Virus record (IMG/VR): IMGVR_UViG_3300005590_000001
Coordinates: 64,001 to 128,000 of that record
DNA length: 64,000 bases
Source of the DNA: a virus
Reading direction: 5' to 3' (one strand)
In this document: positions 2,881 to 8,057 of the stretch, piece by piece
Position numbering within the stretch: the stretch's first letter is position 1
Layout of the letters: every line of letters begins with the position of its first letter
Position numbers and translations under genes: made by a program
The notes under the pieces: model-generated
What the model was told of the DNA's origin: nothing
The model's database searches: none
The model's input: only the letters and a program-made list of their open reading frames with translations

Positions 2881-3525
2881 TAAAGAACACACTCTTAACT
2901 TCGTGGGGGTCGCTAAGAGGTTGGAACAAAGGTCGGAACTTATGATGCTATTGTTCCATTCACATCATAACTTCTTGCGGAAGCTTACAATAAAATCCTC
3001 AGATTTGCGGTCCTTAAACTTTATGGTAATGTTCCTCAGTAAGTCTAGCTCAATGTCACAAGGATCTATGAACCGTATTGACCCACCTAGCCTTTTGGAT
3101 CGAAGCATGCACTGTGATCATCCCTTTTATTATTGATAATATATAATAAAGGGATAAACCACAGCTTAAGCTGTGTGTCTCTTTTCGCACATTAGGCCGT
3201 TCCCTAAGTGGCTTATTCTTGGGAACTGTTCTAACTCTAATAATATAAAGCGCCGCATACTATTCCAGTTTGCCAAACTGTATTAAAGTATGATCCCGGC
3301 TTACACGGGATAGGGCCTTGCTTCGCACTATTGTGCTTCAGTACCATCACAAGATGGCATTAGAGGCGAAACGACAAGTATTTCAAACACCCGCTACTTA
3401 ACCTACCACACTGCGTGATTATGCTTTACATCCTGATGCTGATAGTCCATCAGAACAACAACATAATCTTTACATCATTTCACAAGTGTTCAAAATACCA
3501 ACTGTTCCCGTCTTTAACGGTCACA
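2881..3525 (-). ncRNA. candidate large structured ncRNA-1 (~650 nt), family unassigned
   Basis: No credible ORF. More than 10 helices, e.g. GTATTTTGAACAC/GTGTTTGAAATAC, GATTATGTT/AGCATAATC, TTCTGATG/CATCAGGA, CTCTAATG/TATTAGAG, ATCCCG/CGGGAT, CACAGCTTAAGCTGTG. G-U wobbles fall on the minus strand; ends in a terminator. Confidence 0.72.
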
Positions 3526-3528
3526 TCA

Positions 3529-3936
3529 CTATGCAGTAGGATCAAAGTCCTTAGGAACTTCCGTATCCTTCACCTCATCCCAATTCAGACCCAACTGCTC
3601 AACAGCTTCACGAGGATTATATGAAACAATCTGAATCAATGGAACAAGTTTCATCAGATTACCGTCCTCGCCAACGGTCTTAGCCCAAGCATGTGCCAAA
3701 CCAACATTACCAAGCTGCTTCTTAGCTTCGGCTTCCAGCCTACGCACTCGACGCAACTCAGAAACACAAGTTTCAACACGAGCCGAACCATCACGTAAAA
3801 CTGAAACAACCCGTTCGGCAGCAGCTTTCGCTTCTTCCTCACGCCGTGCTTCAATTGCCTTGTTGATTGCGTCCGTTGACGTTGCAGTCACCTGATTTTC
3901 CAAAGCAGTCAAGAACACATTCTTATCAAAGTTCAT
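3529..3936 (-). CDS. hypothetical coiled-coil protein
   Basis: 135 aa, helical Ala/Glu/Arg-rich centre, AAAGG RBS; directly upstream of ncRNA-1. Confidence 0.7.
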   Translation of the reverse strand: MNFDKNVFLTALENQVTATSTDAINKAIEARREEEAKAAAERVVSVLRDGSARVETCVSELRRVRRLEAEAKKQLGNVGLAHAWAKTVGEDGNLMKLVPLIQIVSYNPREAVEQLGLNWDEVKDTEVPKDFDPTA

Positions 3937-3976
3937 AACACAAACCTTTCAAAAACACTGAAAATGTCCCAAGAAC

Positions 3977-4864
3977 TTACTTGGAACAACGAGCAAGAGC
4001 CTGATCCACATACTTTTCAGCATGATCGTTTTTACCGAAACGGCGGAGTATCTGAGCAACACGCATCATTATCAACCGCTTAGAAGTACCTTTACGGTGT
4101 GCCTTAATCACGTATTGTGATAAAGTCTTCTCACCGTACCAATTGACAGTCTTCTTTGATTTACTAATAGTAGAAGATGATAAGGTCACAATCTTCATCA
4201 TCCTTTCTTTGTTGGAAAAAACAGAAACTCTGTCGGAAGGAAGCACATATGAGTTTGATGGTTTAATTACACCATTGATATCAGCCACAAACTCTTTACC
4301 CCAATCTACCCAAAAGGCAACAGAGAACAAAGTTGCGATGGTTTCATTGTATCGACACTTATATTCGCGGAAATCTCCGTCATTAAACCTGATTGATACA
4401 GTTTCTTTAGATGGCTCTATCGTTTCAAAATGAATATGAGAGCCATGTGGAACCGTAGAATACGGCTTAAACTCAACACCATTTACTTTGATTCTGAGTT
4501 TTTGTTCTGTCCAGCTTTTACCATAAATACGGCTAAACAACATAGCCATATTTTCATTCGGCAACCATTTATGTAAACTACAGACATCGGTGTCATAAGA
4601 CACATAAATGTATTCAGCATTTTCTTTTTGCTCTTTGACATAAAGCGTTCTACTATTGATAGCCCAGACCTTTGCCGGATTAAGCCTTGTTTGCTTCCTC
4701 ACAGTAAAAGTCATTGTGGGGTTAACGTAAATTTCGAAATTTGTACTAAAGAGGTACGGCCTCTTTATTCGAATCAATACTTCGAGAGCCTCAGAACATT
4801 TATCTGAATCAACTTTTACAGTTGACATTTCACCATCAGTTCTGCAATACTTGATTGTCAGCAT
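3977..4864 (-). CDS. multidomain protein with two tandem ubiquitin-like (ThiS/MoaD beta-grasp) repeats
   Basis: Start re-assigned to MLTIKYC (GGAG RBS; the longer start overlaps tRNA-Lys). Repeats ENMAMLF..IKVNG..PYSTVPHGSHIHF and ETIATLF..ADING..SNSYVLPSDRVSVF. Confidence 0.5.
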   Translation of the reverse strand: MLTIKYCRTDGEMSTVKVDSDKCSEALEVLIRIKRPYLFSTNFEIYVNPTMTFTVRKQTRLNPAKVWAINSRTLYVKEQKENAEYIYVSYDTDVCSLHKWLPNENMAMLFSRIYGKSWTEQKLRIKVNGVEFKPYSTVPHGSHIHFETIEPSKETVSIRFNDGDFREYKCRYNETIATLFSVAFWVDWGKEFVADINGVIKPSNSYVLPSDRVSVFSNKERMMKIVTLSSSTISKSKKTVNWYGEKTLSQYVIKAHRKGTSKRLIMMRVAQILRRFGKNDHAEKYVDQALARCSK

Positions 4865-4879
4865 TGAAATTCTCCAAAA

Positions 4880-4952
4880 TAGGACCGGCAGGACTTGAAC
4901 CTGCAACCTCCCGGTTAAAAGCCGGGAGCTCTACCAATTGAGCTACGATCCC
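4880..4952 (-). tRNA. tRNA-Lys(UUU)
   Basis: GGGATCG-TA-GCTC-AATTGGTA-GAGC-T-CCCGG-CTTTTAA-CCGGG-AGGTT-GCAGG-TTCAAGT-CCTGC-CGGTCCT-A; canonical cloverleaf, G1-U72. Confidence 0.95.
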
Positions 4953-4958
4953 AAGTTT

Positions 4959-5198
4959 CTACCATCGAATGATTTTACCGTTTTCAATTTGCCAACACTC
5001 AGCACAGTTTGGATCTTCTTCCCGTTGTCGCTCTAATTCCTCTTCTAAAGTTTCCCGTTCCTTGTGTTTGATGTCAAATTCCGCCGTAACCAAAACACCA
5101 ACATCAGTTTGTGTCTTTTGTGGTGAAAGTCCCAGCATTGCCAATTCAATGAATACTTCATCATGCTGACCCTGCTTTGCCATGAACTTAAATATCAT
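4959..5198 (-). CDS. hypothetical protein
   Basis: Probable start MIFKF after AAGGA. Confidence 0.55.
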   Translation of the reverse strand: MIFKFMAKQGQHDEVFIELAMLGLSPQKTQTDVGVLVTAEFDIKHKERETLEEELERQREEDPNCAECWQIENGKIIRW

Positions 5199-6378: not shown

Positions 6379-6599
6379 TCAGAAATTCCCGTGTTTTATG
6401 CCGTGAGCGACCTTTTGAGCTAGACCAACCATAAGCAATTGTAGTGCTCAAATCAATGAACTCATAAGAGCTAATAAAGCCCTCTATCCATTCATCAAAC
6501 ACAACAAGAAACTCCTAAAAGAAAGACATTAAGCACACTCTGTATAGTGTTGTGTTAAGGGGTGGATTTTGCTTTGTTCTGTGAAAAACTCCACACTCA

Positions 6600-6860
6600 C
6601 ACCAAAAAACCCCCAAAAACAGGCGTTTTTTCGCAACTTTTGCCTCAAACTCAATCACTTTTGCACGATTTTATTTGGTCAAAAGGCGACAAAGGTGCGG
6701 CCACAAAAACACGGGGCTTTTTGACATTTTGTCATTTCGACAAGAAAATTCCCCAAGAGGGTAGTCAAAATTTCCCCGGGGGGTGGTCTCAACTGAAAAT
6801 CAAAAACACGGGAGTTTTGCACGAAAATGTACTTGGCCTCACTTGGCCTCACAACGGTCG
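6600..6860. repeat. non-coding A/T-tract region with AAAAC-N4..6-GTTTT-type dyads and a 10-bp tandem repeat
   Basis: caaaaacaggcgtttttt (~6614), caaaaacacggggctttttg (~6704), caaaaacacgggagttttg (~6801); acttggcctc x2 at 6831-6850. Confidence 0.5.
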
Positions 6861-6947
6861 GACTTAGAACGTAAAAATTCTTAATCCTACCCTATCCGTT
6901 ATCCCGTTTGCTTTGCGGACTTCTGTTGTTTGCAGAAGCCCCGTCGT

Positions 6948-7319
6948 TCAGATTTCTTCGATCTGCTTTCGCAGTCGTTGGTAACGAGCTTTCGACATCG
7001 GCCGACTTCCCCACCTCGAAATACTTTCGGCAGTCTTACGAAAGAACCGCAGAATTTCTTCTGATCGGATGTATTCGGATTCGAACATTCCCTGAGCAGC
7101 AGACAGGTCCGCCTGAATATCAACATCTTCCATGAAGCGTTCACGCATTTGCCCAATGCGATTCAATTCTCGATTAGCATCCGACTTCCGCCGATAAATC
7201 CTCAAGATCACATCCCCCGGATTCTCACCGAAAACTTCCAGAAAAACACAAGCTTCCTGTTCCGTATCAGATTTCCGGATGATGCTTTCCAGAGTATGCA
7301 ACTGCATTTGATTCTCCAA
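6948..7319 (-). CDS. hypothetical protein
   Basis: 123-aa ORF, start uncertain. Confidence 0.6.
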   Translation of the reverse strand: MENQMQLHTLESIIRKSDTEQEACVFLEVFGENPGDVILRIYRRKSDANRELNRIGQMRERFMEDVDIQADLSAAQGMFESEYIRSEEILRFFRKTAESISRWGSRPMSKARYQRLRKQIEEI

Positions 7320-7357
7320 AACTGAACGAATGTGAAGTTTAACACGAGCGAATGCGA

Positions 7358-7431
7358 GTCAGCCATGCTGGATTCGAACCAGACCTACCCAATAAACGGT
7401 GGGCAATGCTACCAATTACACCACAGGCTGA
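7358..7431 (-). other. degenerate tRNA-like element (8-nt anticodon loop)
   Basis: TCAGCCTG-TG-GTGT-AATTGGTA-GCAT-T-GCCCA-CCGTTTAT-TGGGT-AGGT-CTGG-TTCGAAT-CCAG-CATGGCTGA; D arm identical to that of tRNA-Tyr at 1387-1458. Confidence 0.7.
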
Positions 7432-7432
7432 T

Positions 7433-8057
7433 TACGGCAGGGAAAAATTCGTCCCAACCACTGCCGTAGAACAAACGGGACTACCCCTGAATTACAGGAG
7501 AAAAGAACAGACGGCGGAAATCCAGAAGTTAGTGTCCACTGAACCCATATATGTTTTTAGATTCCGAGTGGCTATTGTAGGATTTCGGCTATCTTGCCGA
7601 TAGAAACGGCGACTGATCCCAATCAATCAGAACGCGGGAATGTTGGATATCGCTGGACTCACCCGTAGGCTTTTGAGGATTCCCGAATTACTTCGCCGTG
7701 ATACTGTCTAATCAATACTCGGCCGAATATTGACACAGCACAAAAGTCGGCAAATCGCCGACAAACAAAATCGAACCGAGCCATTACCAAATGAGCCATT
7801 ATAGCCGATTCTAGTATAGTCGGAACATTCTCAAACTGATATCAATCTGAGAAGTCCTCTAGAATACTGACTGAGTAGGGAATCGAACCCTCAACTCGGT
7901 TCTTTCCAAAATCGCCGAACAAAAATTCTTGCAGTATTGCCGCAATAGCTTTTATCGGCGAAATCCCAAGGTGCAAGACTATCAGCATCAACCAACAAAA
8001 TGCACCTTATGCCTTACCACTGATCCAAACAGGGATCACTTATCGGCTATCCGCCAA
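7433..8057 (-). ncRNA. candidate large structured ncRNA-2 (~620 nt), family unassigned
   Basis: No credible ORF. Closing helix TGGCGGA/TCCGCCG; ATAGCCGAT/ATCGGCTAT; AAGGTGCA/TGCACCTT; TTCTCAGAT/GTTTGAGAA; GTCAATATTC/GAGTATTGAT; ACGGCGA/TCGCCGT; T-loop hairpin AGGG-TTCGATT-CCCT; most G-U pairs on the minus strand. Confidence 0.68.

What the first reader, a model, noticed from the sequence alone, without database searches (positions are those of the whole stretch)
3434..7990. The two candidate ncRNAs are complementary over 14 nt in loop regions: a possible bipartite (kissing) RNA system
Seen: plus 3434-3447 TGATGCTGATAGTC is the exact reverse complement of plus 7977-7990 GACTATCAGCATCA. As minus-strand RNAs, RNA-1 shows GACUAUCAGCAUCA (9 nt in the apical loop of its first long hairpin plus the adjacent stem strand). 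RNA-2 shows UGAUGCUGAUAGUC wholly inside the 25-nt loop closed by AAGGUGCA/UGCACCUU. G-U pairs extend the duplex by one base on each side. Both sites lie ~70-90 nt from the inferred 5' ends. Rough chance for a 14-mer between two ~650-nt regions is 650x620/4^14, about 1.5e-3, uncorrected for post-hoc searching. Established: ROOL/GOLLD/OLE RNAs multimerise through loop-loop contacts. Inference: a heteromeric two-RNA assembly or regulator/target pair, which I do not know to be described.
Basis: partly seen in the sequence, partly recalled or inferred. Interest (0 to 1): 0.88.

Follow-up and report, generated by a model that had tools for sequence, protein, structure and literature searches.

The report
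Conserved complementary RNA sites in phage
Two short sequences 4.5 kb apart in an uncultured marine-sediment phage can pair as RNA, and a distant relative keeps a matching pair, so the pairing is probably selected; it is not a contact between two giant structured RNAs.

Summary
The 14-nt complementarity (3434-3447 / 7977-7990) is real. It is unique in the 172-kb phage genome and rare for this pair of regions (6/3000 shuffles; accessibility-corrected energy beaten by 0/375 and 2/375 decoys). Genome-wide, however, one such match among all non-coding DNA is expected by chance.

The two "large ncRNAs" are composites. RNA-1 is a 200-nt lineage-specific hairpin module holding site A, then a twister-sister ribozyme (3237-3328), then a conserved ~390-nt domain and a terminator. 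RNA-2 is a 320-nt lineage-specific module holding site B, with a promoter-like site and a terminator, followed by a conserved 3' module and a tRNA-like gene. Both sites lie outside the conserved cores.

The only diverged relative (two contigs from one run) lacks both modules. It still carries a complementary pair on the same core, GACTAT(C/T)AG, in the same syntenic intervals: 12 contiguous bp, 15 of 16. That duplex extends to the opposite side from the window's (decoys: 32/150,000).

Best reading (~50%): a selected sense-strand RNA-RNA pairing of regulator/target type, not an ornate-RNA assembly. Rivals are a DNA-level inverted motif and chance. No expression data exist. The scan's index shows no look-alike stretch on other DNA.

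The parts
3434..3447 (-). Site A. As minus-strand RNA it reads GACUAUCAGCAUCA.
   Evidence: Nine nt lie in the apical loop and 5 nt in the stem.
7971..7990 (-). Site B element. As RNA it reads UGAUGCUGAUAGUCUUGCAC. The first 14 nt (7990-7977) pair with site A. The last 6 nt (7976-7971) are shared with the relative's B' site.
3329..3528 (-). Module 1a. This 200-nt segment lies between the stop of the 135-aa ORF and the ribozyme. It forms a long hairpin (about 3378-3499) whose apex carries site A. It is not conserved in the relative.
   Evidence: Fold z-score -3.9 on the minus strand versus -2.5 on the plus strand. It is absent from L004, where a 140-aa ORF occupies the interval.
3237..3328 (-). 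Twister-sister ribozyme, three-way-junction form. The predicted cleavage is between 3247 and 3246.
   Evidence: Rfam RF02681 scores 29.2 bits here, below the gathering score of 34. The positional ortholog in L004 scores 36.7 bits. One helix has two compensated pairs. The same core occurs in L021 and L022 at 49-55 bits. The cleavage site follows PMC5660989.
2882..3246 (-). Conserved 3' domain of RNA-1, i.e. the predicted 3' cleavage product.
   Evidence: It is 71% identical to L004, including a 28-nt invariant block. 34 of 129 predicted pairs are compensated on both sides.
2849..2881 (-). Intrinsic terminator of RNA-1.
   Evidence: A 14-bp stem followed by a U-tract, conserved in L004.
7740..8059 (-). 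Module 2a. This 320-nt structured segment follows the 87-aa ORF and carries site B in hairpin 7968-8008. A promoter-like site lies at 8085-8057 and a terminator-like hairpin at 7762-7746. It is not conserved in the relative.
   Evidence: Fold z-score -5.9. It is absent from L020.
7431..7739 (-). Module 2b, the conserved 3' part of 'RNA-2'. The UUUCCGCCGUCUG block pairs locally, so it does not need the 5' end of module 2a.
   Evidence: 74% identity to L020, apart from an 89-nt insert at 7616-7704.
7359..7430 (-). tRNA-like gene directly following module 2b. Its anticodon loop has 8 nt (GUUU).
   Evidence: Rfam tRNA 29.4 bits. ARAGORN calls it at a relaxed threshold. The L020 ortholog has a 7-nt loop with GUU.

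Best explanation
The 14-nt match is most likely a selected RNA-RNA pairing between two sense (minus-strand) phage transcripts.

Site B is a conserved ~20-nt element, UGAUGCUGAUAGUCUUGCAC. It sits on the transcript of the 87-aa gene, here in a 320-nt structured tail (module 2a) that has its own promoter-like site and terminator.

Site A sits 4.5 kb downstream at the apex of a long hairpin, between the 135-aa gene and a twister-sister ribozyme. It would therefore lie on the RNA upstream of the ribozyme cut, not on the conserved 3' RNA.

Proposed mechanism (inferred). The open 9-nt loop of A nucleates on B after B's weak inner helix melts. The duplex then grows to 14-16 bp. This changes the stability, processing or translation of one or both transcripts, in the classical antisense regulator/target manner.

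Shown: the complementarity, its rarity for this pair, the composite anatomy, and the recurrence of a complementary pair on the same core in a diverged relative. Inferred: that both sites are transcribed in the sense direction, that they meet, and what the consequence is.
For: 1. Rarity for this pair: 6/3000 shuffles; decoy partners 0/375 and 2/375.

2. Recurrence in the relative. L004:869-884 (GAGCAAGACUAUCAGU) lies between the 135-aa gene homolog and the ribozyme. L020:2411-2426 (GCUAAUAGUCUUGCUC) lies in the homolog of the 87-aa gene. Together they form 12 contiguous bp, 15 of 16, at -20.2 kcal/mol. In real-sequence decoys, a 9-mer of the 14-mer together with a complement of 12 nt or more at that place occurred in 32 of 150,000 trials. 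With the added B-side 10-mer identity it occurred in 0 of 150,000. The lenient version gave 76 of 40,000.

3. The four sites are isolated islands. Their flanks are unalignable and the surrounding modules are not conserved.

4. Each phage extends the shared core on a different side. The window adds CAUCA/UGAUG and the relative adds GAGCAA/UUGCUC. A fixed protein-binding motif would not predict this; selection for duplex length would.

5. The motif has only these two copies per genome piece.

6. All neighbouring genes are on the minus strand, and all four modules fold better on the minus strand than on the plus strand.

7. Site A's 9 loop bases have an unpaired probability of at least 0.95.
Against: There are no expression data, so strand and co-occurrence of the RNAs are untested.

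Genome-wide, one inverted 14-mer among non-coding segments is what chance predicts: 0.98 expected, 1 observed.

No duplex position shows true covariation, meaning both phages paired but with different base pairs. The sequence itself is conserved (up to 15/16 across phages), which also fits a sequence-specific motif.

In the relative both sites lie inside ORFs and are not consistently presented in loops.

With global folding the net energy is only about -5 kcal/mol, and the sites are not unusually accessible.

The comparison rests on one diverged lineage. Its two contigs are only presumed to come from one genome.
Confidence: 0.5

Rival explanations
1. DNA-level inverted motif. The conserved island G(A/T)GCAAGACTAT(C/T)AG is a site on double-stranded DNA, for example for a regulator or a recombination protein. 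It is present once in each orientation and brackets the same early-gene block. Complementarity of the RNAs would then be a by-product.
For: Cross-phage identity of the island (15/16, 13/14) is as high as within-phage identity. In the relative the sites lie inside ORFs, where an RNA loop contact is less natural. In both phages the two sites bracket the same syntenic block.
Against: The motif is not palindromic. Window site A keeps only 9-10 of about 15 motif positions, yet matches site B over 5 further bases that are not part of the cross-phage motif. The complete genome has no serine or tyrosine recombinase. All contigs that span the block have the same orientation.
Confidence: 0.2
2. Coincidence or neutral relic. 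The 14-mer is a chance match between two fast-evolving intergenic inserts, or the remnant of an old inverted duplication, and has no function.
For: One inverted 14-mer among the genome's non-coding DNA is expected by chance. Each module also has other exact 14-17-nt matches elsewhere in the genome. The sites lie in non-conserved modules. Close relatives are identical, so they give no test.
Against: The relative carries a complementary pair on the same core in the same intervals, which happened in 32 of 150,000 decoys, or 0 of 150,000 with the stricter statistic. The island flanks are unalignable, so neutral retention is unlikely.
Confidence: 0.15
3. Two large ornate ncRNAs of ~650 and ~620 nt form a heteromeric kissing assembly comparable to ROOL, GOLLD or OLE particles.
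For: Both regions are strongly structured, with z-scores of -3.4 and -6.3. The sites are in or near hairpin loops.
Against: There is no Rfam match to ornate RNA families. Both regions are composites, and the sites lie in the non-conserved modules. A ribozyme separates site A from the conserved RNA-1 domain. A terminator-like hairpin separates module 2a from module 2b. The known ornate assemblies are homo-oligomers (PMC12286853).
Confidence: 0.05
4. Type I toxin-antitoxin-like control. Site B covers the AUG (7988) of a 48-aa ORF (7988-7842) with a hydrophobic N-terminus. An SD-like AAGGUG sits in the closing stem. The loop of site A would block translation of this ORF.
For: By direct reading of the sequence, the AUG lies inside the 14-mer and AAGGUG lies 14 nt upstream in the stem.
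Against: The ORF has no Pfam match and no gene caller calls it. The SD spacing is long. The ORF runs through strongly structured RNA, including a T-arm-like hairpin. Module 2a is absent in the relative, where B' lies in another gene and another reading frame.
Confidence: 0.05

Closest known systems
Antisense RNA pairs that start from loop contacts (CopA-CopT of plasmid R1, RNA I-RNA II of ColE1) and trans-encoded sRNA-mRNA pairs (own knowledge)
   Same: A short perfect complementarity of 12-16 nt, with one partner shown in the apical loop of a long hairpin. The seed-like element B is conserved, while the target sites use different registers. The partner is encoded at a distance on the same replicon.
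   Different: The partners are not cis-antisense. They lie 4.5 kb apart on the same strand. Site B is only partly exposed. In the relative both sites are inside ORFs. No transcript has been mapped.
ROOL, GOLLD and OLE ornate RNAs (PMC12286853)
   Same: Large structured non-coding regions in a phage, with inter-RNA contacts proposed.
   Different: Those are single conserved RNAs that form homo-oligomers. Here there is no Rfam match, the regions are composites, and the complementary sites lie outside the conserved cores.
Twister-sister self-cleaving ribozymes (Rfam RF02681; PMC5660989)
   Same: The element at 3237-3328 has the three-way-junction core, the conserved L1 and SL4 bases, and a covarying helix. 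Like L021 and L022, it lies between phage genes.
   Different: It scores below the gathering threshold in the window. It has a 35-nt extension on one helix, a weak P1 and an extra U before the cleavage-site A. It heads a conserved ~390-nt non-coding domain rather than sitting between two ORFs.
Short inverted repeats of invertible DNA segments (fim switch, Gin/Hin systems; own knowledge)
   Same: Two short inverted repeats bracket a block of a few kb.
   Different: No recombinase is found in the complete phage genome. The repeat has no dyad symmetry. Only one orientation is seen in all contigs.

Membership tests
Trans antisense / kissing RNA pair | Complementarity longer than chance gives for the two RNAs | tested here: met
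   6/3000 shuffles; decoys 0/375 and 2/375. At genome-wide scale, however, one such match is expected.
Trans antisense / kissing RNA pair | Complementarity kept in related genomes | tested here: met
   The one diverged relative has 12 contiguous bp (15 of 16) on the same core in the same intervals. Decoys reached this in 32 of 150,000 trials. Only one lineage was available.
Trans antisense / kissing RNA pair | Compensatory (both-sided) substitutions inside the duplex | tested here: not met
   No position is paired in both phages with different base pairs. The duplex shifts register instead. Close relatives are identical.
Trans antisense / kissing RNA pair | Sites exposed in hairpin loops | tested here: inconclusive
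   Site A has 9 of 14 nt in a loop. Site B lies in a large loop but has a weak inner helix. Accessibility is not above the median. There is no consistent loop in the relative.
Trans antisense / kissing RNA pair | Both partners transcribed from the strand that makes them complementary | not testable with these tools
   No RNA holder is listed. There are only indirect hints: gene orientation and the strand asymmetry of fold z-scores.
Ornate large RNAs (ROOL, GOLLD, OLE) | Match to the family covariance models | tested here: not met
   No hit even at E up to 5.
Ornate large RNAs (ROOL, GOLLD, OLE) | One conserved architecture over the whole ~600 nt | tested here: not met
   Only 2844-3328 and about 7431-7739 are conserved in the relative. 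The site-bearing modules are not.
Twister-sister ribozyme (RF02681) | Covariance-model score at or above the gathering score of 34 bits | tested here: inconclusive
   The window copy scores 29.2 bits. The positional ortholog in L004 scores 36.7 bits.
Twister-sister ribozyme (RF02681) | Conserved L1 bases (G5 C6 A8 G9; G59 C60 U61 A63) and the SL4 loop | tested here: met
   The window has GCAAG ... GCUUU^AU and CCCGUGUAAGCCGGG (alignment). These bases were read against PMC5660989, where the base before the cut may be U. One extra U is present.
Twister-sister ribozyme (RF02681) | Self-cleavage | not testable with these tools
   This needs an in vitro cleavage assay.
Invertible DNA segment | A site-specific recombinase encoded by the element | tested here: not met
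   PF00239 and PF00589 are absent from the complete genome, while the control genomes were positive.
Type I toxin-antitoxin | A small hydrophobic toxin ORF of a known family | tested here: not met
   The 48-aa ORF has no Pfam hit at E up to 10 and was not called as a gene.

The most novel reading that the evidence does not exclude
The RNA upstream of the twister-sister cut, which carries site A, and the transcript of the 87-aa gene, which carries the conserved 20-nt element B, form a ribozyme-linked regulatory pair. Either pairing with B controls folding and self-cleavage of the adjacent ribozyme, and so the release of the conserved ~390-nt RNA, or the ribozyme-released 5' fragment acts as a trans antisense regulator. 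I do not know of a described natural self-cleaving ribozyme wired to a trans RNA partner in this way.
Probability: 0.12. Interest if true: 0.75.

Novelty: new member of a known kind. Interest (0 to 1): 0.45.

Why it matters
If the pairing is real, it is a conserved trans RNA-RNA contact in the early region of a large uncultured phage. One partner sits directly upstream of a twister-sister ribozyme, a ribozyme class whose biological role is still unknown. That would give a concrete and testable link between a natural self-cleaving ribozyme, a conserved phage non-coding RNA and an antisense partner.

The work also corrects the anatomy. The two "giant ncRNAs" are mosaics of conserved cores and lineage-specific modules. 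That matters for any attempt to model or express them.

Tried and rejected
- GenBank phages: no relative found by blastn or megablast; the only hits were to tRNA.
- IMG/VR and JGI metagenome scans with flanking proteins, a protein alignment and RNA patterns returned only one near-identical contig.
- Close relatives from seven or more samples are 100% identical in RNA-1 and 99.5% identical in RNA-2, so they carry no covariation information.
- Sequencing runs: no RNA holder is listed. The three DNA runs (marine sediment) gave only contigs of the two known strains, and no strand-changing joint was listed at the repeats. Contigs cannot show absence.
- A third lineage (L019, 67% identity over the 211-aa protein) ends 75 nt after the gene and does not reach the site. 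All relatives' protein clusters are singletons.
- The scan's own index has no look-alike stretch on other DNA.
- Full-length duplexfold of the two RNAs is meaningless and was discarded. One decoy run timed out.
- A tRNA-remnant reading of module 2a was rejected. Only relaxed-threshold ARAGORN calls appear, and there is no Rfam tRNA hit except 7359-7430.
- An alternative genetic code as the cause of the ORF-poor region was rejected, because table 11 covers 91% of the genome.
- Module 1a is not a remnant of the relative's 140-aa gene (no tblastn hit).
- There is no extended similarity between modules 1a and 2a, or around the four sites.
- PHROGs and Pfam found nothing for the ten flanking ORFs.

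
Full report
**Setting.** The window is bases 64001-128000 of a complete 171,987-bp virus record with direct terminal repeats. Near-identical DNA occurs in marine-sediment metagenomes. The standard genetic code fits the genome, with 91% ORF coverage; window 1-8000 is the least coding stretch. 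All genes in 1-15,900 are on the minus strand. The flanking ORFs match no PHROG or Pfam family.

**Observation.** The two 14-mers are exactly as described and have no other copy in the genome, even with one mismatch allowed.
- An accessibility-corrected interaction energy of -16.0 kcal/mol was matched by 0 of 375 real-sequence decoy partners for RNA-1 and 2 of 375 for RNA-2.
- Across all ~15 kb of non-coding DNA in this genome, one inverted 14-mer match is expected by chance (0.98 expected, 1 found). For the window's 5 kb of non-coding DNA the expectation is 0.10.
- Each module also has other exact 14-17-nt matches elsewhere in the genome.

On statistics from this genome alone, the match is suggestive and no more.

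**Structure at the sites.**
- Site A has 9 nt in the apical loop of a ~120-nt hairpin (unpaired probability at least 0.95) and 5 nt in a stable stem.
- Site B lies in the 25-nt loop closed by the 8-bp stem 7968-7975/8001-8008, but 8 of its 14 nt are predicted to sit in a weak, G.U-rich inner helix.
- With global folding, opening costs 12.9 + 7.0 kcal/mol against a duplex of -24.8.
- Neither site is more accessible than the median window.

**Anatomy of "RNA-1".**
- Rfam finds a twister-sister ribozyme at 3237-3328 (minus strand) at 29.2 bits, below the gathering score of 34.
- A diverged relative was found through the 135-aa protein (53% identity). It is contig L004, 1846 nt.
- In L004 the orthologous ribozyme scores 36.7 bits, and one helix carries two compensated pairs (CAUAC/GUAUG versus CACGC/GCGUG).
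- Unrelated phage loci L021 and L022 carry the same three-way core at 49-55 bits.
- The L1 bases required for activity are present. The base before the cut is U, which is tolerated according to PMC5660989. That places the cut between 3247 and 3246.
- L004 aligns with the window from the ribozyme to the terminator at 71% identity. The alignment includes a 28-nt invariant block, and 34 of 129 predicted pairs are compensated on both sides.
- The 200 nt upstream of the ribozyme (3329-3528), which hold site A, do not align. L004 has a 140-aa ORF there, and that ORF has no homolog in this genome.

**Anatomy of "RNA-2".**
- A second contig from the same run, L020, was found through the 119-aa protein. 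It is syntenic: homologs of the 606-, 172-, 211-, 87- and 119-aa ORFs appear in order.
- Between the homolog of the 87-aa gene and the tRNA-like gene, L020 has only about 230 nt. These match window 7739-7705 and 7615-7431.
- The 5' 320 nt (8059-7740), which hold site B, are absent from L020.
- In the window this module is bounded by a promoter-like site (8085-8057) and a terminator-like hairpin (7762-7746).
- The conserved UUUCCGCCGUCUG block pairs locally inside module 2b.

Both "large ncRNAs" are thus mosaics, and both complementary sites lie in the lineage-specific parts.

**The comparative test.** Although the modules are missing, the relative carries its own complementary pair.
- L004:869-884 reads GAGCAAGACTATCAGT. 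It lies inside the 140-aa ORF, between the 135-aa gene and the ribozyme.
- L020:2411-2426 reads GCTAATAGTCTTGCTC. It lies inside the homolog of the 87-aa gene, 122-137 nt before its stop.
- Together they give 12 contiguous pairs, 15 of 16, at -20.2 kcal/mol.
- All four sites share the core GACTAT(C/T)AG. Sites B, B' and A' share GCAAGACTAT(C/T)AG.
- The flanks are unalignable, and the motif has no further copies.
- The window duplex extends 5 bp to one side (CATCA). The relative's duplex extends 6 bp to the other side (GAGCAA).
- In decoy pairs drawn from the genome, a 9-mer of the 14-mer together with a complement of 12 nt or more at that place occurred in 32 of 150,000 trials. Adding the B-side 10-mer identity, it occurred in 0 of 150,000. 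A lenient version gave 76 of 40,000.

Chance recurrence is therefore unlikely. The different extension on each side argues for selection on duplex length rather than on a fixed protein-binding motif.

**Limits of that test.**
- Only one diverged lineage exists in the collections I could search.
- Its two contigs are only presumed to come from one genome.
- No duplex position shows true covariation.
- The island is conserved in sequence (up to 15/16 across phages).
- In the relative the sites lie inside ORFs, without a consistent loop context.

**The DNA-level reading** (an inverted motif bracketing the same gene block) is therefore a serious rival. Against it: the motif has no dyad symmetry, the complete genome encodes no serine or tyrosine recombinase, and every contig spanning the block has the same orientation.

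**Verdict.**
A selected complementary pair, most likely an RNA-RNA regulator/target contact, is the best reading (about 0.5).
- A heteromeric assembly of two ornate RNAs is not supported. ROOL, GOLLD and OLE are homo-oligomeric single RNAs (PMC12286853), and nothing here matches them.
- Expression, strand and effect remain untested because no RNA data are listed for this phage.

Noticed in passing
window 2844-3328 (minus): A twister-sister ribozyme heads a conserved ~390-nt structured RNA that ends in a strong terminator. The predicted 3' cleavage product is therefore a conserved non-coding RNA rather than an mRNA. The window copy is missed at Rfam's gathering threshold.
   Followed up: yes
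window 3305-3316 with 3172-3184 (minus): RNAalifold pairs the ribozyme's 5' strand (CGAAGCAAGGCC) with the start of the 28-nt invariant block (GGCCUAAUGUGCG) downstream. This could be an alternative fold that competes with the active ribozyme. All bases are invariant, so there is no covariation test.
   Followed up: partly
window 7359-7430 (minus): A tRNA-like gene with an 8-nt anticodon loop (four-base anticodon GUUU by ARAGORN; Rfam 29.4 bits). Its ortholog in L020 has a normal 7-nt loop with GUU (Asn) but G at position 33. It could be a quadruplet decoder or a decaying tRNA.
   Followed up: partly
window 7842-7988 (minus): A 48-aa ORF with a hydrophobic N-terminus. Its AUG lies inside site B, and an SD-like AAGGUG lies in the closing stem. 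It has no family match and was not called by gene finders.
   Followed up: partly
window 7912-7928 and 9109-9125: A 17-nt exact direct repeat (AATTTTTGTTCGGCGAT on the minus strand) is shared by module 2a and the spacer before the 211-aa gene. A related UUGUCGGCGAUUU motif also occurs at 5871 and 7752.
   Followed up: no
window 2525-4181: There are zero differences from the second strain over 1657 nt, next to a stretch with 22 differences in 660 nt (4182-4845). This looks like a recent recombination block rather than constraint.
   Followed up: partly
L004:232-245 with L020:1428-1441: The relative has a second exact 14-nt complementarity, between the 135-aa gene homolog and the spacer after p112 (about 0.02 expected). 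The window search for complements of 10 nt or more listed no counterpart.
   Followed up: partly
L021:941-1004 and L021:3083-3154: An unrelated IMG/VR phage contig carries a type II hammerhead and a twister-sister ribozyme 2 kb apart. L022 carries two twister-sisters 1.7 kb apart.
   Followed up: no
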